Below, piece after piece: positions 26,141 to 33,578 of a stretch of DNA of 64,000 bases. Positions within the stretch are counted from its first letter, which is position 1, and every line of letters begins with the position of its first letter. The stretch lies in assembly GCA_024959305.1 (NCBI GenBank), contig JANXGQ010000036.1:8624-72623 (forward strand), read 5' to 3'. This DNA comes from Porticoccaceae bacterium (GTDB taxonomy: Bacteria; Pseudomonadota; Gammaproteobacteria; Pseudomonadales; Porticoccaceae). The notes beneath the pieces are model-generated. The model was not told the DNA's origin and made no database searches. It saw only the letters and a list, made by a program, of their open reading frames with translations. The position numbers and the translations under genes were made by a program.

Positions 26141-26200
26141 AGCGCGATAACTGTGCAATTGACAGATTCTAGCCACTGCTCTACGCACCAATACTGTGCC
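26141..26200. promoter_or_regulatory. Two candidate NtrC-type enhancer sites
   Basis: AGCGCGATAACTGTGCA (26141-26157) and CGCACCAATACTGTGCC (26184-26200) partially match TGCACCA-N3-TGGTGCA and lie upstream of the sigma54-like promoter. Confidence 0.5.
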
Positions 26201-26249: not shown

Positions 26250-26265
26250 TGGCACGAATTTTGTA
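26250..26265 (+). promoter_or_regulatory. Candidate sigma54 (-24/-12) promoter of the nirB operon
   Basis: TGGCAC-GAATT-TTGTA vs consensus TGGCAC-N5-TTGCW; correct GG-N10-G spacing, one mismatch at -12. Confidence 0.62.
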
Positions 26266-26337
26266 TATGGTAGGGTAGAAAGGCGCTAGGTTGTCAACCC
26301 ACTCTTTTAAGGGCAGCAGCCTAGTGCATCATAAGAT

Positions 26338-26477
26338 GAGACCTTTGCACGGATAGAGATTTTGTTCTCAGACAAGGCAAAATCGCACGGAATAAGGGAG
26401 TTTATAGATCATAAATGACCGAATGAGTACGATTTTAACGCCGTATGAGGGCAAAAGATCATTTGCGCAAAGGTCTC
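26338..26477. mobile_element. 140-bp miniature inverted-repeat element (MITE) in the nirB leader
   Basis: TIRs GAGACCTTTGC / GCAAAGGTCTC (11 bp perfect, 12/13 extended). Direct repeat AAGAT on both flanks (26333-26337 and 26478-26482). Internal pairings AAAATCG...CGATTTT and TTTAT-agatc-ATAAA. No ORF. Confidence 0.8.
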
Positions 26478-26499
26478 AAGATAAGTGAAGGAAAAAATA

Positions 26500-29025
26500 A
26501 TGTTAAATGTAGTTGTAGTAGGTAACGGCATGGTGGGTCACCATTATGTGGCGCAGCTAGTGGATTCCGGTATTGATGCCAAAATTACCGTTATTGGTGG
26601 CGAACCCAGACCCGCTTATGATCGGGTTCACCTCTCGGAGTTTTTTGCCGGCCGGTCGCCAGAAGAACTGGCACTTACAACTAGAGAGCATTACGCTGAA
26701 TTGGGAGTCGATGCTCATTTTGGCGATCCTGTCGAGCGCATAGATCGCGACAATAAAACGGTCATTACTAACGCTGGCCGCAGCTTCTCCTACGACAAGC
26801 TAGTGCTGGCCACCGGCTCCTATCCCTTTGTGCCCCCAATAGCGGGCTCTGACCACCAAGCCTGTGCGGTGTACCGAACCATCGATGATTTAGGCAATAT
26901 TCAAGCACAGTCCAAAGGTGCAAAAGTAGGGGTTGTCGTGGGCGGCGGTCTGCTGGGTCTAGAAGCAGCCAATGCACTGCAAAATCTCGGCCTGGAAACC
27001 CATGTAGTCGAATTCGCACCCGGGCTAATGGGCGTGCAATTAGATACTGGTGGCAGCGCCATGTTGCGCCGCAAGATTGAGGCCCTAGGGGTGCAAGTAC
27101 ACACTAGAAAGGCCACAGAGGTCATTGAAGAAAATGTACAGGGCGAAACCCGCCTAGAGATGAAGTTTGCCGATGGCGAGTCGCTGGCCACAGATGTTAT
27201 TGTATTTTCTGCGGGAATTCGCCCCTATGATCAACTGGCACGGGATGCAGATCTCAAGGTTGGCGAACGCGGTGGAATTGACGTCGATTACCATTGTAAA
27301 ACCAGTGATTCAGATATTTTTGCTATAGGCGAATGCGCTCTGTTTGGCGGTCGTATCTTCGGTTTGGTAGCGCCAGGTTACCGCATGGCTGAGGCCGCAG
27401 TCAGCCAACTCGGCAACGATCCCATACCTTTTCAGGGTGCAGATATGAGCACCAAGCTAAAATTGCTCGGTGTAGATGTGGGTTCCATTGGCGATGCTCA
27501 CGGCAAGTGTGAAGGCTCCATTGCCTATACTTTTAGCGATGAGCGTATCGAAATCTACAAACGTATTATCGTCAGCGCAGATGGCAAAAAACTACTGGGC
27601 GCTGTTTTAGTCGGTGACTGCTCAGACTATGACAGCTTGCTCCAGTACTTTTTAAATGACATTGAGCTGCCCGCAGACCCTGAAACCTTAATTCTGCCTT
27701 ATAACGCCGGCTCTGCACCCACTTTGGGCGCCGCGGCACTGCCTGCCACCGCCACTATCTGCTCCTGCCACAATGTCAGCAAAGGCGATATTGTCGATGC
27801 GATGGAGGCGGGACACTGCTCCCTTGCCGCGGTAAAATCTGAAACCGCCGCCAGCACCGGTTGCGGTGGCTGTACCGCACTGCTGAAAAATATTGTCGAT
27901 ACCGAAATGGCCGAGCGCGGACTTGAAGTTGATACCTCGATCTGCGAACACTTTGCCCACACCCGCCAAGAGTTGTTCCATCTGATCAAAGTGGGCAGTA
28001 TCAAAAGCTTTGATGAGCTACTCGACAAACATGGCACGGGGCGCGGCTGTGATATCTGCAAGCCAGCGACCGGATCTATCCTCGCCTCACTGTGGAATGA
28101 CTATGTCTTAGAAGAAAAACATGTGGGCTTGCAGGATACCAACGATACATTTTTAGCCAATATGCAAAAAAACGGGACCTACTCTGTAGTTCCGCGAATT
28201 GCCGGTGGTGAAATCACTCCCGACAAACTGATTGTGCTGGGTCAGGTGGCGAAGAAATATAACCTCTATACAAAGATTACTGGAGGTCAGCGCATTGATT
28301 TATTCGGTGCGCGAGTGCAGCACCTGCCCGCTATCTGGAAAGAATTGGTCGAGGCCGGTTTTGAAACGGGTCACGCCTACGGCAAAGCATTGCGCACAGT
28401 GAAATCCTGTGTGGGCAGCACCTGGTGTAGATACGGCGTGCAAGACAGTGTCGCTATGGCTCTGTATGTAGAAAACCGCTACAAAGGCCTGCGCTCACCG
28501 CACAAGCTAAAATCCGCAGTGTCGGGCTGTACTCGGGAATGCGCCGAGGCCCAGTCTAAAGACTTTGGTGTGATAGCCACAGAAAATGGTTGGAATCTAT
28601 TTGTTTGCGGCAACGGCGGTATGAAACCACGCCATGCCGACCTGTTCGCCACTGATTTGGATGATGAAACTCTGATTAAATACATAGATCGCTTTTTAAT
28701 GTTCTATGTGCGCACCGCTGACCGCCTGCAGCGCACTTCTGTGTGGATGGACAACCTAGAGGGCGGTCTGGATTATCTCAAGCAGGTAGTGATCGAAGAT
28801 TCTCTGGGTATCGCCGCCGAACTTGAAGAACAGATGAACAATATTGTCGGCACCTATCAATGTGAGTGGAAAACCACCATTGAAGATCCTGAGCGTCTCA
28901 AGCGTTTTGTGCAGTTTGTTAATACTGACGAAGACGACGAGAAGATTATCTTTGTGCAGGAACGCGGACAGCCGCGACCGGCTACAGAAGAAGAGCGCCA
29001 GACACTACTGAAAGAAACTGCGTAG
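26500..29025 (+). CDS. nirB: Assimilatory nitrite reductase (NADH), large subunit
   Basis: VVVGNGMVGH, KLVLATGSYPFVPP, GGGLLGLEAA, CSCHNV/TGCGGC, CEHF...GCDICKP, RTVKSCVGSTWCRYG, GCTRECAEAQ siroheme/[4Fe-4S] ligands. Confidence 0.96.
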   Translation: MLNVVVVGNGMVGHHYVAQLVDSGIDAKITVIGGEPRPAYDRVHLSEFFAGRSPEELALTTREHYAELGVDAHFGDPVERIDRDNKTVITNAGRSFSYDKLVLATGSYPFVPPIAGSDHQACAVYRTIDDLGNIQAQSKGAKVGVVVGGGLLGLEAANALQNLGLETHVVEFAPGLMGVQLDTGGSAMLRRKIEALGVQVHTRKATEVIEENVQGETRLEMKFADGESLATDVIVFSAGIRPYDQLARDADLKVGERGGIDVDYHCKTSDSDIFAIGECALFGGRIFGLVAPGYRMAEAAVSQLGNDPIPFQGADMSTKLKLLGVDVGSIGDAHGKCEGSIAYTFSDERIEIYKRIIVSADGKKLLGAVLVGDCSDYDSLLQYFLNDIELPADPETLILPYNAGSAPTLGAAALPATATICSCHNVSKGDIVDAMEAGHCSLAAVKSETAASTGCGGCTALLKNIVDTEMAERGLEVDTSICEHFAHTRQELFHLIKVGSIKSFDELLDKHGTGRGCDICKPATGSILASLWNDYVLEEKHVGLQDTNDTFLANMQKNGTYSVVPRIAGGEITPDKLIVLGQVAKKYNLYTKITGGQRIDLFGARVQHLPAIWKELVEAGFETGHAYGKALRTVKSCVGSTWCRYGVQDSVAMALYVENRYKGLRSPHKLKSAVSGCTRECAEAQSKDFGVIATENGWNLFVCGNGGMKPRHADLFATDLDDETLIKYIDRFLMFYVRTADRLQRTSVWMDNLEGGLDYLKQVVIEDSLGIAAELEEQMNNIVGTYQCEWKTTIEDPERLKRFVQFVNTDEDDEKIIFVQERGQPRPATEEERQTLLKETA

Positions 29026-29033
29026 GAATTGAT

Positions 29034-29372
29034 ATGACCCAAGATAACAAACTAGTGGCTCTGTGCAAACAGTCCGACCTTATACCCAACTCAGGCATTT
29101 GTGCACGCGTAGGAGATCAACAGATTGCCCTATTCTATCTGCCCAAGGAAACGCCTCAGGTGTATGCCATTGGCGACTGGGACCCCATTGGCAAAGCCAA
29201 TGTGTTATCCCGAGGCATAGTCGGAGATATTGACGGGCGCATCGTTGTCGCCTCGCCACTCTATAAGCAGCACTTCGATCTTCACACCGGCGATTGCCTA
29301 GAAGACGCAACGGCCAATGTGCCCTGCTACCGCGTCAGCCTAGATGGCGATCAAGTGCTGATCGCACTTTAA
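29034..29372 (+). CDS. nirD: Nitrite reductase small subunit
   Basis: QIALF...YAIGDWDPIGKANVLSRGIVGD...VASPLYKQHFDLHTGDCLED. Confidence 0.95.
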   Translation: MTQDNKLVALCKQSDLIPNSGICARVGDQQIALFYLPKETPQVYAIGDWDPIGKANVLSRGIVGDIDGRIVVASPLYKQHFDLHTGDCLEDATANVPCYRVSLDGDQVLIAL

Positions 29373-29406
29373 ACGTAGATATGTACCAGATTTGGGACCT
29401 AATAAT

Positions 29407-31596
29407 ATGATTTTTGGACGGAAAAAGCGCAAACCAATCGTCATTCCTGCCAAGCCAGTCGCTGAGTGGAAATACACCACCTGTAACTATTGCTCGACCG
29501 GCTGCGCGATTGAAGTTGGCTTGAGCGAAGAGGGCAAAATCGTCTCCAGTCGCGGCCATGCGGGCGCGGATGTAAACCGCGGCAAGCTCTGCATCAAGGG
29601 AATTCTCGAGCACGATCTATTTCAATCGGCCGGGCGCGGCACCCAACCCCTGATGCGCAACCGCTTCCAAGAAGAATTTCAGCCAACCGACTGGGATACA
29701 GCTCTGGACCACAGCGCCGCCAAGATCAAGGAAATCCAACAGAAGTACGGCCGCGACAGTTTTGCCGTGGTGTCCACGGGCCAGCTGTACACCGAAGAGT
29801 TTTACACGCTGGGCAAGTTGGTGCGCGGCTGTATCGGCACCAACAATTACGATGGCAATACCACGCTGTGCATGGCGTCCGCGGTGGCCGGCTATAAGCG
29901 CTCCTTCGGCTCGGATGGCCCGCCAGGGTGCTACGAAGACTTTGAGCATACACAGTGCTTTATGGCATTCGGCTCCAACCTTCCAGAGCAACACCCGATT
30001 ATTTACTGGCGCCTGAAAGAAGCGCATGAAAAACGCGCCTTTCCGATTATCTGTGTCGACCCGCGGGTGACCATGCTGGCGCAGTTCGCAGATATTCACC
30101 TGCCGATTACACCAGGCACCGATTGCGTTCTGATCAACGCCATGCTGCATGTGATTATCTCTGAGGGCCTGCATGACGAGGAGTACATCCGCGCCCACAC
30201 CAATGGTTTCGAGGAACTCAAAGCCACGGTGGCAGACTATGACCCGGTTCAGGCCCAGCATATATGCGGTATTGACGAGGACATGATCCGCCATGTGGCA
30301 CGGCTTTACGCCAAAGCCGATGCGGCCATGTCAATCTGGACCATGGGCATCAATCAGAGTACCCACGGCACCGACGGCGTATGCAATATCAACAATCTAA
30401 ATTTGATAACGGGAAATATCGGCAAGCCCGGCGGCACCTCCCTGTCCATTACCGGCCAGTGTAATGCCATGGGCACCCGCGAGTGGTCGTCCTGCTCTGG
30501 ATTGCCCGGTTACCGCAAACTGGAAGAAGCGGCGCACCGCGAGGAAATCGCCGATTTTTGGGGAATCGATCCCGAGTTTTTCCCCAAGCAGCGCGGTTTA
30601 GCGCAAACTGATATCTTCCCAGCTATCGAGGCCGGTCAGATCAAGGGGCTGTGGCTGGTCGCCACCAACCCGCTCACGTCCATGCCCAATCAGGCGCGCA
30701 TGCGCAAGATGTTCGAAAAACTGGATTTTCTGATTGTGCAGGACGTGTACGAGGATGTGGAAACCAATCAGTATTCCCATGTATTTTTCCCCGCCGCGGT
30801 CTGGGCGGAGAAAGAGGGCTGTCAAACCAACACCGAGCGCCGCGTCAACCTAGTCCGCAAGGTGATTGAACCCATGGGCGATTGCAAGGCGGATTTCTGG
30901 ATCTTCCGCGAAATGGCCAAGCGCTTCGAAAACGGCCAAGTAATCAATTTCCCAGAAACCACTGAAGCCACCTTTGAAGAGATGAAAGAGCTATCGGTTG
31001 GCGCAGACCGCACGCTGGACATCTCGGGGATGACCTACAGCAAGATTGAACAGGCCAAGGGTATTCAGTGGCCCTATCGCGAGGATGCACAGGGGCTCAA
31101 AGGGGATGCTCGCCTCTATACCGACGGCAAATTCCAGACTCCAGACGGCAAGGCCAATCTGATTGCGGTCAAATTCCGCGACAACAACGAGAAGCCGGAC
31201 GACAGCTACCCCTTCTGGTGCAACAGCGGCCGCGTGGTCGAACATTTCCACACCCGCACCAAGACCGGAAAGATCGGCAACCAAAACAAGTTTAGCCCCA
31301 CGCCCTATATGGAAATTAATCCAGACGCGGCAGAGGAGCTCGGTGTCGAGCACCTGTCCTATGTGCGCCTAGTGTCCAGACGTGGTGATGCGGTGGTGCT
31401 GGCCCAGCTTACCCATCGGGTACCGCGCGACATGATATTTATCCCCTTCCATTTTTACGACTGCGTGAACCGGCTGACTCTGGGCCTGCTCGATCCCATC
31501 TCGCGGCAGCCCGCATTTAAGCAGTGCGCAGTGCGCATCGAAAAAGTCGACCAGCAGGAGGCCGCTCGCTTAAACGTTGAGCGCCGCACCTACTAA
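29407..31596 (+). CDS. nasA: Mo-bisPGD oxidoreductase of the NasA/NarB/NapA nitrate-reductase clade; about 730 aa, no C-terminal BFD extension, no Tat signal
   Basis: CNYCSTGC...GKLCIKG [4Fe-4S] motif, GNTTLCMASAV (Cys Mo ligand as in NapA/NarB), SITGQCNAMG, EGCQTNTERR, SGRVVEHFHTRTKT, FIPFHF, PAFKQCAV. Confidence 0.85.
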   Translation: MIFGRKKRKPIVIPAKPVAEWKYTTCNYCSTGCAIEVGLSEEGKIVSSRGHAGADVNRGKLCIKGILEHDLFQSAGRGTQPLMRNRFQEEFQPTDWDTALDHSAAKIKEIQQKYGRDSFAVVSTGQLYTEEFYTLGKLVRGCIGTNNYDGNTTLCMASAVAGYKRSFGSDGPPGCYEDFEHTQCFMAFGSNLPEQHPIIYWRLKEAHEKRAFPIICVDPRVTMLAQFADIHLPITPGTDCVLINAMLHVIISEGLHDEEYIRAHTNGFEELKATVADYDPVQAQHICGIDEDMIRHVARLYAKADAAMSIWTMGINQSTHGTDGVCNINNLNLITGNIGKPGGTSLSITGQCNAMGTREWSSCSGLPGYRKLEEAAHREEIADFWGIDPEFFPKQRGLAQTDIFPAIEAGQIKGLWLVATNPLTSMPNQARMRKMFEKLDFLIVQDVYEDVETNQYSHVFFPAAVWAEKEGCQTNTERRVNLVRKVIEPMGDCKADFWIFREMAKRFENGQVINFPETTEATFEEMKELSVGADRTLDISGMTYSKIEQAKGIQWPYREDAQGLKGDARLYTDGKFQTPDGKANLIAVKFRDNNEKPDDSYPFWCNSGRVVEHFHTRTKTGKIGNQNKFSPTPYMEINPDAAEELGVEHLSYVRLVSRRGDAVVLAQLTHRVPRDMIFIPFHFYDCVNRLTLGLLDPISRQPAFKQCAVRIEKVDQQEAARLNVERRTY

Positions 31597-31622
31597 ACGC
31601 CGCACCCATTAGGAATTGTGAT

Positions 31623-33578
31623 ATGAACGATCTCAGTAAAGCCCAGACCCTCGCAGGGGCAGCCAATGAAACCGCACAGGCCGACGGCAGTACCCTGTGG
31701 GAAATGCGCACTGAGGAACAGTCCTACGCCTTGCTGCCCGACCAAGAAATCAAGGACCAAAATTGCTACGGTCAAAAAATTGATCTGCTAGAGCTGACCG
31801 AAGGTGCCCTACCAAAGGACCGCCCGCTCTACATCAACGAAAATCCAGAGGTTGGCAGCAACCCCAACCGCAACAAGCAACATGCGTTTTTCTTTACTGC
31901 CGACAACTGTATCGGCTGCCACGCCTGTGAATCCGCCTGTGCGGAGAAGAACGAAACCCCAGCGCATCTGGCGTTTCGCTCGGTCGGTTACGTGGAGGGC
32001 GGTAGCTATCCAGACTATCAGCGCCTGAATATTTCCATGGCCTGCAATCATTGCGACGATCCGGTTTGTCTCAAGGGCTGCCCTACCGGTGCCTACACCA
32101 AGCACGCCGAGTACGGCGCCGTGCTACAGGACCCCGAAACCTGTTTCGGCTGTGGTTACTGCACCTGGGTGTGCCCCTATAACGCACCTCAGCTCGATCC
32201 TGTCGAGGGTCATGTCTCCAAGTGTAATATGTGTGTGGACCGCCTCGAAGTGGGCCTGAAGCCCGCCTGTGTCTCGGCCTGTGTGGGCAACGCCCTAGAT
32301 TTTGGCGTGGTTGAAAATATTCCAGAGAACCGCGAGGAAGCCAAGGTCAGTATCCCCGGCTTTCCGGACCCATCGATCACCCAACCCAATATCCGCTTCC
32401 AGCAGGTGAAGAAACTGCCGGATGAAATGACGCGCCCGGACTCGCAACCGGTCAAATATCACAAAGATAGCCACGGCAACTACAAGCCGAGCATCGATCA
32501 GAAAACCGGCGCAAAAAAATTCTGGAATCTGCGCCGCTTGAGCTCAAAGGAAAACCCCTTGGTGCTCTTTACACTGATGTCGCAAGCGGCAATCGGCGCC
32601 TTCGCCAGTATCTTCCTCGGCACGCAATTTGGACTGGATGGGTTCGTCGAATTTGCCGGATCATCCATGTACGCGCCCTTCGGCATGCTGTGTTTTTTAC
32701 TGGTCGGCTACGGACTCTTTATGTCCACTATGCATCTGGGCAAACCCCTGCGCTTCTATCGCGGGTTTAACAATTTGCGCCATTCTCCGGTATCTCGTGA
32801 AGGGCTGGGTATCGCCGCCTTTATGGGTTTTCTGGCCCTGCATATCCTCTGCAGTCTGCCCGCAAACGCCCTATTTGCCGACGCCTATCAGTATTTATTT
32901 GGAATAGAAATATCGAAATTGCTAAGCCCCGCACTCACGGCGGGCAGTGCCGCTGTACTGGGATATCTGGCGCTGATTTCCGCGATTGCCGGCCTCTACT
33001 ACATGACCCGTTGCTATCGCATTCCGGCGCGTCCATTCTGGGACCACTGGCAGGCATCTGCCACTTTCTTCGGCAGCAGCCTATCGCTCGGCGCTTTGGT
33101 GACCGGCCTAGTTGCTATCCCCACACTGATAATGAGCGCAAGCCAAATCGGTCCGGCGCTACAGATACTCGGCAGCATTCTCGCCTTGGGAGCTGTGCTC
33201 GAAGGCATCGGCCTGTACGTCCATCATCGGGATATGAGTAGCGCGGAACACGAGGGCGGCGCCTCCCACTATGTGCAACGCACCACCTTTGGCAAAAGCT
33301 ACCTGCTCAGAAATCTGCTGCTGGGCACCCTTAGCCTAGCCGCGGTGGCTCTGGTTATCTCTGGTTACAGCAATATCTGGGCGCTTGGTTGCTGGGGGCT
33401 AGTAGCCCTTATGCTAATTGGCAGCAGCCTAATCGGACGGGCGCTCTTTTATGTGCTGGTGATTCCAACCACCATGCCCGGCGCATTTTTCTGGCGCAAC
33501 AAGGGGTTTGAACAGCATGCACGGGATACCGGTCTGGCCAATATGCCGCAGGTGGGTGTAGTGCCCGATACCCACTAG
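31623..33578 (+). CDS. Fused DmsB-like 4x[4Fe-4S] ferredoxin plus DmsC/YnfH(NrfD)-type 8-TM membrane anchor
   Basis: CIGCHACESAC, CNHCDDPVCLKGCP, CFGCGYCTWVCPY, KCNMC...PACVSAC, then ENPLVLFTL, HLGKPLRFY...SPVSRE and GRALFY motifs with about 8 hydrophobic segments. Confidence 0.88.
   Translation: MNDLSKAQTLAGAANETAQADGSTLWEMRTEEQSYALLPDQEIKDQNCYGQKIDLLELTEGALPKDRPLYINENPEVGSNPNRNKQHAFFFTADNCIGCHACESACAEKNETPAHLAFRSVGYVEGGSYPDYQRLNISMACNHCDDPVCLKGCPTGAYTKHAEYGAVLQDPETCFGCGYCTWVCPYNAPQLDPVEGHVSKCNMCVDRLEVGLKPACVSACVGNALDFGVVENIPENREEAKVSIPGFPDPSITQPNIRFQQVKKLPDEMTRPDSQPVKYHKDSHGNYKPSIDQKTGAKKFWNLRRLSSKENPLVLFTLMSQAAIGAFASIFLGTQFGLDGFVEFAGSSMYAPFGMLCFLLVGYGLFMSTMHLGKPLRFYRGFNNLRHSPVSREGLGIAAFMGFLALHILCSLPANALFADAYQYLFGIEISKLLSPALTAGSAAVLGYLALISAIAGLYYMTRCYRIPARPFWDHWQASATFFGSSLSLGALVTGLVAIPTLIMSASQIGPALQILGSILALGAVLEGIGLYVHHRDMSSAEHEGGASHYVQRTTFGKSYLLRNLLLGTLSLAAVALVISGYSNIWALGCWGLVALMLIGSSLIGRALFYVLVIPTTMPGAFFWRNKGFEQHARDTGLANMPQVGVVPDTH

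What the first reader, a model, noticed from the sequence alone, without database searches (positions are those of the whole stretch)
26250..33578. Candidate membrane-anchored, quinol-fed assimilatory nitrate reductase (nirBD - short nasA - fused DmsB/DmsC)
Seen: one co-oriented, tightly spaced operon behind a sigma54/NtrC-like promoter. It contains nirB, nirD, a roughly 730-aa Cys-ligated NasA/NarB-clade molybdoenzyme without a C-terminal BFD extension, and a 651-aa fusion of a 4x[4Fe-4S] DmsB-like domain with a DmsC/NrfD-like anchor. No separate diaphorase, ferredoxin or flavodoxin gene is present. Established: assimilatory Nas enzymes are soluble and take electrons from NAD(P)H via a flavoprotein partner, or from ferredoxin/flavodoxin. 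DmsBC/PsrBC modules connect molybdoenzymes to the quinone pool in respiratory complexes. Inference: the Nas-type subunit docks on the fused module and reduces nitrate with quinol electrons, and NirBD reduces the nitrite to ammonium. I know of no biochemically characterised enzyme with this architecture, though homologous annotations may exist in databases.
Basis: partly seen in the sequence, partly recalled or inferred. Interest (0 to 1): 0.9.

Follow-up and report, generated by a model that had tools for sequence, protein, structure and literature searches.

The report
Membrane-anchored, quinol-type assimilatory nitrate reductase
A nitrate-assimilation operon pairs a cytoplasmic nitrate reductase with a single protein that joins an iron-sulfur wire to a quinol-binding membrane anchor, which suggests that this bacterium and many others reduce nitrate for growth with respiratory-quinol electrons rather than NADH or ferredoxin; I found no description of this in the searchable literature.

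Summary
On the + strand lie nirB (26500-29025), nirD (29034-29372), a 729-aa Tat-less Mo-bisPGD enzyme (29407-31596) and a 651-aa fusion of a four-cluster DmsB/PsrB-type domain with an eight-helix DmsC/NrfD-type anchor (31623-33578). The gaps are 8, 34 and 26 nt.

The molybdoenzyme has nitrate-reductase active-site motifs. It forms its own clade within the Nas/Nap group, beside NapA and classical Nas, not inside either. In 300 genomes sampled across the class, 42 hold both this enzyme and the fusion, and one each holds only one. They are adjacent in 72 of 80 fetched loci, usually with nirBD, narK and cobA.

The anchor keeps all four DmsC quinol-site residues. Charge bias and the lack of Tat motifs place the whole module on the cytoplasmic face.

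The host genome (1.58 Mb, 96% complete) has only three molybdopterin enzymes, and has ubiA but no menA. The best reading is therefore a ubiquinol:nitrate oxidoreductase feeding NirBD. Nothing here is biochemical. I found no paper describing this architecture. Earlier agents of this scan reached the same reading in other genomes.

The parts
26185..26199 (+). NtrC-like half-palindrome GCACC-N5-TGTGC, about 50 nt upstream of the -24 element
   Evidence: Read directly from the sequence. ntrC is present above its cut-off in the genome. This is inference only.
26250..26265 (+). Sigma-54-type -24/-12 promoter-like site TGGCACgaattTTGTa
   Evidence: it is the only such site upstream of nirB, and the window has no strict-consensus site anywhere. 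Six of ten related loci carry a consensus-class TGGCA[C/T]-N5-TTGC[A/T] site upstream of nirB. rpoN is present.
26338..26477 (.). 140-bp MITE-like repeated element inserted in the operon leader
   Evidence: at least five copies covering most of the element (106-140 bp), 91-97% identical, lie on other contigs of the same genome. The leader containing the element folds at -83.6 kcal/mol, the element forming the long hairpin, with no U-tract after it.
26500..29025 (+). nirB, NAD(P)H nitrite reductase large subunit (FAD, BFD 2Fe-2S, siroheme/4Fe-4S)
   Evidence: NF011565 1284 bits; TIGR02374 1069 bits. The ATG 26500 start is read.
29034..29372 (+). nirD, Rieske-like small subunit of nitrite reductase
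   Evidence: PF13806; TIGR02378 107.9 bits, over its cut-off.
29407..31596 (+). Short (729 aa) Tat-less Mo-bisPGD nitrate reductase of a distinct Nas/Nap-group lineage. It has an FS0 motif CxxCxxxC and the Mo ligand Cys in LCMASAV.
31623..31877 (+). Fusion protein residues 1-85: a family-specific N-terminal extension, conserved from W26, of unknown role
   Evidence: invariant W26, R29, T30, E32 and others. It has no Pfam match. It is missing from the more distant fused relatives.
31878..32327 (+). Fusion protein residues 86-235: four-cluster [4Fe-4S] DmsB/PsrB-type domain with 16 Cys
   Evidence: The best solved relatives are PsrB 2vpw_B (2.4e-25) and FdnH. All 16 Cys are invariant.
32328..32552 (+). 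Fusion protein residues 236-310: conserved basic linker (about 12 K+R over residues 260-312)
32553..33464 (+). Fusion protein residues 311-614: eight-helix DmsC/NrfD-type anchor with N and C termini in the cytoplasm and a quinol-site motif S368/H371/S388/E393
   Evidence: pLDDT above 90 over most of the helices; ActC, PsrC; PMC8076601.
33465..33578 (+). Fusion protein residues 615-651 plus stop: near-invariant cytoplasmic tail PTTMPGAFFWxNKGFExHA

Best explanation
The operon encodes a complete nitrate-to-ammonium route whose first enzyme is a membrane-bound complex facing the cytoplasm.

1. Ubiquinol is oxidised at a DmsC-type site (S368, H371, S388, E393) near the cytoplasmic face of the eight-helix domain.
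2. Electrons pass along the four [4Fe-4S] clusters of the fused N-terminal domain.
3. They reach the FS0 cluster and then the Mo-bisPGD centre of the Nas-type subunit, which reduces nitrate to nitrite in the cytoplasm.
4. NirBD reduces nitrite to ammonium with NAD(P)H.
5. Transcription probably starts at an NtrC/sigma-54 promoter.

**Shown:** gene content, motifs, topology signals, obligate co-occurrence and the nitrate-assimilation context.

**Inferred:** the physical complex, quinol as donor, and the assimilatory role.

**Likely benefit (inference):** NADH electrons can first pass through an energy-conserving NADH dehydrogenase, and no separate diaphorase or ferredoxin is needed. That would suit a 1.58-Mb genome.
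For: - **Active site.** It is of the nitrate-reductase type, not the Fdh type. The enzyme is placed in the Nas/Nap group.
- **Co-occurrence.** In 300 genomes sampled evenly over the class, the fusion is in 44, the Mo enzyme in 43 and both in 42. The two genes are adjacent and co-oriented in 72 of 80 loci, with a median distance of about 100 nt between the aligned stretches.
- **Shared history.** Their distance matrices correlate (r = 0.87, Mantel p = 0.001). The Pseudomonas copies of both proteins are nearest to Burkholderiales copies, so the pair moves as a unit. A fusion only 38% identical again follows a 59%-identical Mo enzyme.
- **Neighbours.** They are nirB, nirD, narK, cobA and a Ser/Thr kinase-phosphatase.
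- **Host genome.** It has only three MopB proteins: FdsA, a weaker 937-aa hit that I take to be NuoG (not annotated further), and this one. This enzyme is therefore the only plausible molybdoenzyme partner of the fusion.
- **Quinol site.** DmsC residues S62, H65, S82 and E87 align with S368, H371, S388 and E393, all invariant in 50 homologues. Replacing His65 of DmsC blocks quinol oxidation (PMC8076601).
- **Orientation.** Cytoplasmic loops carry 26.9 K+R against 0.8 outside. No Tat motif occurs in 0 of 50 fusions or 0 of 73 Mo enzymes, while the NapA and DmsA controls are detected.
- **Quinone type.** ubiA is present and menA absent.
- **Donor domain.** The enzyme lacks the C-terminal BFD domain of NADH-type Nas (compare).
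Against: - There are no biochemical, genetic or expression data.
- No model of the complex could be made.
- The AlphaFold model of the fusion is confident only for the membrane domain (pLDDT below 50 for residues 63-231).
- The deep position of the Mo enzyme is unresolved: sister to Nas or to Nap are equally good.
- It scores below the NCBIfam cut-offs for NasC, NasA and NapA.
- Some Burkholderiales clusters also carry a classical BFD-type Nas, so the two types could have different roles.
- E. coli DmsC uses menaquinol. Use of ubiquinol by such an anchor is assumed, not shown.
Confidence: 0.62

Rival explanations
1. The short Nas-type enzyme takes electrons from a soluble donor: ferredoxin or flavodoxin as in NarB, or NirB/NirD as in Paracoccus NasBGC. 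The fusion protein only tethers it to the membrane, for example beside the nitrate transporter, or serves as an assembly or regulatory partner.
For: The enzyme has the size of ferredoxin-type NarB/NasA enzymes. nirBD lies directly upstream here. For Alteromonas macleodii, whose nasA has no NasC partner, a ferredoxin donor has been proposed (PMC12021255).
Against: A mere tether would not need 16 invariant cluster cysteines and four invariant quinol-site residues. The pair stays together in many loci with no nirB within 10 kb. The Mo enzyme lacks the BFD domain used for NADH-type electron input.
Confidence: 0.13
2. The complex is a quinol:nitrate oxidoreductase used mainly for respiration or for disposing of excess reductant, a heme-free functional analogue of NarGHI. 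NirBD then detoxifies the nitrite, rather than the pathway serving nitrogen assimilation.
For: Its architecture is that of respiratory CISM enzymes. NirBD also serves dissimilatory or detoxifying nitrite reduction in enterobacteria (my own knowledge). Some clusters hold a second, classical Nas, which could be the assimilatory one.
Against: The context is consistently assimilatory: cobA, narK, the kinase known from Pseudomonas nas clusters, and NtrC/sigma-54-type promoters. The 96%-complete host genome has no other MopB-family nitrate reductase candidate. With the quinol and nitrate sites on the same face, the enzyme itself would not build a proton gradient unless the anchor conducts protons outward.
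Confidence: 0.15
3. The molybdoenzyme acts on a substrate other than nitrate, such as formate or another oxyanion, and its position next to nirBD is coincidental.
For: Its best NCBIfam score is to the broad Fdh-alpha model (588 bits, below the 666 cut-off). A grouping with Fdh is only marginally rejected (p = 0.033) and was not rejected in the smaller data set (p = 0.26).
Against: It has Cys-Met rather than Sec/Cys-His at the Mo ligand. It has Thr in place of the Fdh Arg333, and the downstream Arg-Glu is shared with Nap and Nas. Its linkage to nitrate-assimilation genes recurs across Beta- and Gammaproteobacteria.
Confidence: 0.04

Closest known systems
Classical assimilatory nitrate reductases (Klebsiella NasA, Paracoccus NasC, Sinorhizobium NarB, haloarchaeal NasA)
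   Same: A cytoplasmic, Tat-less Mo-bisPGD enzyme with an N-terminal [4Fe-4S] cluster and a Cys-Met ligand motif. It is encoded with nirBD, narK and cobA.
   Different: It is a separate lineage, only 31-35% identical to these enzymes. It has no BFD domain and no diaphorase partner. It has a clade-specific N-terminal extension. It is always paired with a four-cluster protein fused to a membrane anchor. Wells et al. 2020 (PMC7331816) state that the Nas/Nap/Fdh/Aio clade is not associated with such subunits.
DmsABC / PsrABC complex iron-sulfur molybdoenzymes
   Same: A catalytic Mo subunit with FS0, a 16-Cys four-cluster subunit, and an eight-helix NrfD/DmsC-type heme-free anchor with the S-H-S-E quinol-site residues.
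   Different: The B and C subunits are fused into one chain. There is no Tat signal, so the whole module faces the cytoplasm. The catalytic subunit comes from the Nas/Nap group. The probable quinol is ubiquinol, not menaquinol.
SoeABC sulfite:quinone oxidoreductase (Allochromatium vinosum, Aquifex aeolicus)
   Same: It is the only described NrfD-type complex proposed to face the cytoplasm, with an inverted anchor that shares His65 and Glu87 (PMC8076601). Tat-less SoeABC-like operons occur in relatives.
   Different: SoeA is a roughly 966-aa PhsA-like enzyme that oxidises sulfite and reduces quinone. SoeB and SoeC are separate proteins. They are no closer to the fusion (38-39% and 32-34% identity) than E. 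coli DmsB and DmsC (36% and 32%).
NarGHI respiratory nitrate reductase
   Same: The proposed reaction is the same: quinol oxidation coupled to cytoplasmic nitrate reduction through a four-cluster subunit.
   Different: NarG is an Asp-ligated type II enzyme. NarI is a di-heme b anchor that oxidises quinol at the outer face and so makes the enzyme electrogenic. There is no homology in the anchor, and the physiological context differs.

Membership tests
Assimilatory nitrate reductase (NasA/NasC/NarB) | N-terminal [4Fe-4S] motif CxxCxxxC...C and a Mo-bisPGD fold | tested here: met
   Pfam Molybdop_Fe4S4, Molybdopterin and Molydop_binding. The motif TTCNYCSTGC aligns with Nas, Nap and Fdh.
Assimilatory nitrate reductase (NasA/NasC/NarB) | Cys ligand followed by Met (CM[AS]S), and Thr-Gly-Gln in place of the Fdh Arg-Gly-Gln | tested here: met
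   LCMASAV and SITGQCNAMGTRE.
Assimilatory nitrate reductase (NasA/NasC/NarB) | Cytoplasmic location (no Tat signal) | tested here: met
   No twin-arginine motif in 0 of 73 family members. The NapA and DmsA controls are detected.
Assimilatory nitrate reductase (NasA/NasC/NarB) | Falls inside the clade of characterised Nas enzymes, or passes curated family cut-offs | tested here: not met
   It forms its own 100/100 clade in a trichotomy with NapA and classical Nas. It scores 516 bits against a NasC cut-off of 1100, and 482 against a NasA_Halo cut-off of 1000.
Assimilatory nitrate reductase (NasA/NasC/NarB) | Genomic linkage to nitrite reductase, a nitrate transporter and siroheme synthesis | tested here: met
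   nirBD is in the operon. narK plus the kinase and cysG lie on other contigs. The same gene set recurs in the 80 loci.
Assimilatory nitrate reductase (NasA/NasC/NarB) | Soluble enzyme fed by NAD(P)H-diaphorase, ferredoxin or flavodoxin | not testable with these tools
   Gene content argues against this: there is no BFD domain, no diaphorase, and an obligate membrane partner.
Complex iron-sulfur molybdoenzymes (DmsABC/PsrABC type) | Four-cluster protein with 16 conserved Cys | tested here: met
   Four Cys groups at residues 96-106, 141-153, 174-184 and 201-220, all invariant. PsrB matches at E = 2.4e-25.
Complex iron-sulfur molybdoenzymes (DmsABC/PsrABC type) | Heme-free NrfD/DmsC-type anchor of eight helices with quinol-site residues | tested here: met
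   PF04976. Eight helices. Fold matches to ActC and PsrC. S368, H371, S388 and E393 correspond to DmsC S62, H65, S82 and E87 (PMC8076601).
Complex iron-sulfur molybdoenzymes (DmsABC/PsrABC type) | Tat export, with the catalytic dimer on the periplasmic face | tested here: not met
   There are no Tat motifs, and the positive-inside bias is 26.9 against 0.8 K+R.
Complex iron-sulfur molybdoenzymes (DmsABC/PsrABC type) | Separate B and C polypeptides | tested here: not met
   It is one 651-aa open frame, conserved as a fusion in thousands of database proteins.
Complex iron-sulfur molybdoenzymes (DmsABC/PsrABC type) | Physical A-B-C complex with quinol-dependent activity | not testable with these tools
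   No multimer prediction or experiment was available.
SoeABC | Cytoplasm-facing NrfD-type module | tested here: met
   The topology signals are as above. The orientation of SoeC is taken from PMC8076601.
SoeABC | SoeA-type catalytic subunit (about 966 aa, PhsA-like) | tested here: not met
   The partner here is a 729-aa Nas/Nap-group enzyme.

The most novel reading that the evidence does not exclude
This is a third major lineage and a new architectural class of nitrate reductase, beside Nas, Nap and Nar: a cytoplasm-facing ubiquinol:nitrate oxidoreductase built from a Nas/Nap-group subunit and a fused, inverted DmsB-DmsC module. It is carried by about one in seven sampled genomes across the Beta- and Gammaproteobacteria. 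In the boldest version, the NrfD-type anchor sends the quinol protons outward, so that nitrate assimilation itself conserves energy. The roughly 0.33 V span from ubiquinol to nitrate would allow 2 H+ per 2 e-.
Probability: 0.2. Interest if true: 0.88.

Novelty: new variant of a known kind. Interest (0 to 1): 0.72.

Why it matters
Textbook accounts divide bacterial assimilatory nitrate reductases into soluble NADH-type and ferredoxin/flavodoxin-type enzymes. A quinol-fed, membrane-bound type would be a third class. It would occur in common marine and freshwater heterotrophs: Porticoccaceae, Cellvibrionales, Colwellia, Thalassotalea, Shewanella, Pseudoalteromonas, Comamonadaceae and others.

It would change several things:
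- how the energy cost of nitrate use is budgeted in ocean and soil models;
- how nasA marker-gene surveys are read;
- how the many database entries now named "DmsC/YnfH family anchor subunit", "DMSO reductase iron-sulfur subunit" or even "aspartate carbamoyltransferase" should be annotated.

It would also be a second example, after SoeABC, of an inverted NrfD-type module. It contradicts the published generalisation that the Nas/Nap/Fdh clade never associates with canonical four-cluster and anchor subunits.

The streamlined host genome is an unusually clean case, because the fusion has only one plausible molybdoenzyme partner.

Tried and rejected
- **Structure.** The AlphaFold2 model of the fusion was good only for the membrane domain. 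The Foldseek matches were therefore weak (best E = 1.8e-3; ActC, PsrC). No multimer docking was available.
- **Alteromonas macleodii.** I tried to link the family to the nasA knockout in that species (PMC4899447, PMC12021255). A search seeded with an Alteromonadaceae fusion protein listed no A. macleodii entry among its top 120 hits. That nasA also has much higher reported scores to classical Nas and NarB, so it probably belongs to another clade. I dropped this as evidence.
- **First tree.** It contained a wrongly framed Pantoea FdhF, and its AU tests could reject nothing. I rebuilt it with more references.
- **Descent from SoeBC.** I tested whether the fusion descends from SoeBC. The SoeBC-like proteins are no closer than E. 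coli DmsBC, so this is not supported.
- **Leader RNA.** An Rfam scan of the leader found nothing meaningful.
- **ANTAR regulators.** The ANTAR search was uninformative, because its controls did not ring.
- **Promoter and terminator scans.** The sigma-70 and terminator scans inside the operon were at chance level.
Full report
**1. What is there**

Between 26250 and 33578 the + strand carries four tightly spaced genes.
- **nirB:** NF011565 at 1284 bits, with FAD, BFD and siroheme domains.
- **nirD:** TIGR02378.
- **A Mo-bisPGD enzyme.**
- **A 651-aa protein** with Fer4_11 (residues 138-229) and DmsC (309-612).

The intergenic gaps are 8, 34 and 26 nt. The genes before the operon (recG, a PhoU-like gene, pit) and after it (pgk, epd and tkt, convergent) are unrelated.

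Two starts need correcting. nirB most likely begins at ATG 26500, behind a GAAGGA ribosome site. The Mo enzyme begins at ATG 29407, because MxFGRxxRKPIxIPxK...EWKYTTCNYC is conserved in all relatives.

**2. The molybdoenzyme**

It has 729 residues, no BFD or flavin domain and no twin-arginine motif.

In an alignment with reference enzymes it shows LCMASAV, that is Cys-Met as in Nap and Nas. E. coli FdhF and the genome's own FdsA have Sec/Cys-His at that place. It shows SITGQ where Fdh has the catalytic Arg333, and it keeps the downstream Arg-Glu of Nap and Nas.

The tree has 31 rows. The references are the Klebsiella nasFEDCBA NasA, a Paracoccus NasC orthologue, S. meliloti NarB, Ralstonia, Burkholderia, Hymenobacter, a haloarchaeal NasA, three NapA, five Fdh, and DmsA as outgroup.
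- The formate dehydrogenases form a separate clade (100/98).
- A Nas/Nap group is supported at 95/93.
- Inside that group, NapA, the classical bacterial Nas enzymes and the fusion-linked enzymes (100/100) form an unresolved trichotomy.
- Forcing the fusion-linked clade together with Fdh costs 24.6 log-likelihood units (AU p = 0.033, a marginal rejection).
- Placing it as sister to Nas or to Nap is equally acceptable.

It falls below every NCBIfam equivalog cut-off. It is thus a nitrate-reductase-type enzyme of its own lineage. It is not a member of the NasA/NarB clade proper.

**3. The fusion protein**

Residues 86-235 carry 16 cysteines in the four groups typical of DmsB, PsrB and NrfC. All 16 are invariant in 50 homologues. 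The best solved relatives are PsrB (2vpw_B, 2.4e-25) and FdnH.

Residues 311-614 form eight helices. This is the only part of the AlphaFold model that is confident. Its best fold matches are ActC of alternative complex III and PsrC with bound menaquinone.

BLASTP and a profile comparison align it with E. coli DmsC. S368, H371, S388 and E393 correspond to DmsC S62, H65, S82 and E87. These four residues are listed as the DmsC quinone site, and replacing His65 blocks quinol oxidation (PMC8076601). All four are invariant in the family.

Over the 50 homologues, the loops predicted to be cytoplasmic carry 26.9 Lys+Arg on average and the opposite loops 0.8. None of the 50 fusions or 73 Mo enzymes has a Tat motif, while NapA and DmsA controls do. 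The iron-sulfur domain, the conserved loops and the quinol site therefore all face the cytoplasm. This is the reverse of DmsABC and PsrABC, and it resembles what is proposed for SoeABC (PMC8076601).

**4. Is the pairing real?**

A scan of species-representative genomes returned at least 575 relatives of the fusion. Of the 80 best loci, 72 hold a near-full-length Mo enzyme of this clade directly upstream on the same strand.

In 300 genomes drawn evenly across the class, the fusion occurs in 44, the Mo enzyme in 43 and both in 42. The three exceptions, one genome with only the enzyme and two with only the fusion counted differently across the two searches, may reflect contig breaks; I did not check this. 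The remaining genomes have neither.

The pairwise distance matrices of the two proteins correlate (r = 0.87, Mantel p = 0.001). Shared phylogeny contributes to this figure. The Pseudomonas copies of both proteins are closest to Burkholderiales copies, which indicates joint transfer.

In a library clustered at 50% identity the family collapses to a few representatives. Shorter fused B-C proteins at 33-49% identity also exist. One of them, 38% identical, again follows a Mo enzyme 59% identical to the one here, after a 3-nt gap.

**5. Context**

The recurrent neighbours are nirB, nirD, NarK-type transporters, cobA, a PP2C/Ser-Thr kinase protein, a GT3-like protein and an unannotated protein of about 138 aa right after the fusion.

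The window's genome is 1.58 Mb and 96% complete. It keeps narK plus the kinase on contig C36 and cysG on C79. It lacks the 138-aa gene.

It has only three MopB-family proteins: an NAD-type FdsA with FdhD, a weaker 937-aa hit that I take to be NuoG but did not annotate further, and this enzyme. This enzyme is therefore the only plausible molybdoenzyme partner of the fusion, and the only nitrate reductase candidate.

ubiA is present and menA absent, so the quinol would be ubiquinol.

rpoN and ntrC are present. The site TGGCACgaattTTGTa at 26250 is one base off the sigma-54 consensus. Six of ten related loci have a consensus-class site upstream of nirB.

**6. Mechanism**

The best-supported reading runs as follows. 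NarK imports nitrate. Ubiquinol is oxidised at the cytoplasm-side site of the anchor. Electrons run through four [4Fe-4S] clusters to FS0 and the Mo centre. Nitrite then goes to NirBD.

The anatomy is shown. The complex, the donor and the physiological role are inferred by analogy with DmsABC and PsrABC, and from the co-occurrence data.

Ubiquinol to nitrate is downhill by roughly 0.33 V, using standard potentials from my own knowledge. With both sites on one face the enzyme would not be electrogenic unless the anchor conducts protons outward. That remains open.

A plausible advantage is that NADH electrons pass an energy-conserving dehydrogenase first, and that no diaphorase or ferredoxin gene is needed.

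**7. Rivals**

- **A soluble donor, with the fusion as a mere tether.** This fits poorly with the invariant cluster and quinol-site residues.
- **A dissimilatory or redox-balancing role.** This cannot be excluded. It gains some weight from Burkholderiales clusters that carry a classical BFD-type Nas right after the short Nas, the fusion and the 138-aa gene. The context and promoters are assimilatory, however, and this genome has no other candidate.
- **Another substrate.** This is unlikely given the active-site motifs.

**8. Known or new?**

Full-text searches for combinations of assimilatory nitrate reductase or nitrate assimilation with DmsC, NrfD, membrane anchor, quinol and membrane-bound found no description.

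Wells et al. 2020 state that no member of the Fdh/Nas/Aio/Nap clade is associated with the canonical four-cluster or anchor subunits (PMC7331816). The 2021 review of NrfD-like subunits lists no Nas complex (PMC8076601). The library lacks most subscription journals, so absence is not proof.

Earlier agents of this scan reached the same reading for homologous loci in other genomes. Those are AI notes, not independent evidence, and I formed my reading before seeing them.

**9. What this window adds**

- A streamlined genome with a single possible partner enzyme.
- Ubiquinone as the only quinone.
- A class-wide co-occurrence count.
- The four-residue match to the DmsC quinol site.
- The finding that a 140-bp repeated element sits between the promoter and nirB.

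**10. Verdict**

It is a new variant of known kinds: a Nas/Nap-type enzyme wired to an inverted, fused CISM module. It is of high interest but unproven biochemically.

Noticed in passing
window 26338-26477: A 140-bp repeated element lies between the sigma-54-like promoter and the nirB ribosome site. At least five copies covering most of it (106-140 bp), 91-97% identical, and many fragments lie on other contigs. The leader containing it folds at -83.6 kcal/mol, the element forming the long hairpin, with no U-tract after it. Its effect on operon expression is unknown.
   Followed up: partly
window 26485-26500: The longest nirB frame starts at GTG 26485. ATG 26500, with GAAGGA 8 nt upstream, gives the typical MLNVVVVGNGM start, so NirB is probably 841 aa.
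   Followed up: partly
L034 11911-12327; L036 11935-12333 (and about 30 of the 80 loci): A conserved soluble protein of about 132-138 aa, with no Pfam match, directly follows the fusion gene in both Burkholderiales and Alteromonadales. It is absent from the window's genome. It is a candidate third subunit or assembly factor.
   Followed up: partly
L036 7594-15258 (also L012, L016, L017, L034, L022): In several Burkholderiales one cluster holds both the short Nas plus fusion and, right after them, a long (about 970 aa) classical Nas with a C-terminal BFD domain. This suggests two nitrate reductases with different electron inputs side by side.
   Followed up: partly
L097 5843-10426; L098 2428-7081: Relatives in the same class carry Tat-less three-gene operons of 966-970, 231 and 313 aa that look like SoeABC. 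No NCBIfam model names them.
   Followed up: partly
database entries P0014, P0178, P0231: Some members of the fusion family are named 'aspartate carbamoyltransferase' in NCBI records. Most others are named only as a DMSO reductase anchor or iron-sulfur subunit. These annotations are probably misleading.
   Followed up: no
L091 (NZ_CP132641.1, 'plasmid p3' of Klebsiella pneumoniae): A 128-kb record filed as a plasmid carries the nasFEDCBA-type nitrate-assimilation cluster together with narXL and narK. This looks like chromosomal content.
   Followed up: no
G000 whole genome: The genome is only 1.58 Mb at 96% completeness, with three MopB proteins. It has an NAD-type formate dehydrogenase (FdsA plus FdhD, contig C3). 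Its nearest relatives for these genes are Porticoccaceae.
   Followed up: partly
L002 and L057: Copies of the pair occur in bins labelled Gemmatimonadales and Flavobacteriales, but they are 82-90% identical in the Mo enzyme to gammaproteobacterial copies. This reflects either recent transfer or mis-binned contigs.
   Followed up: no
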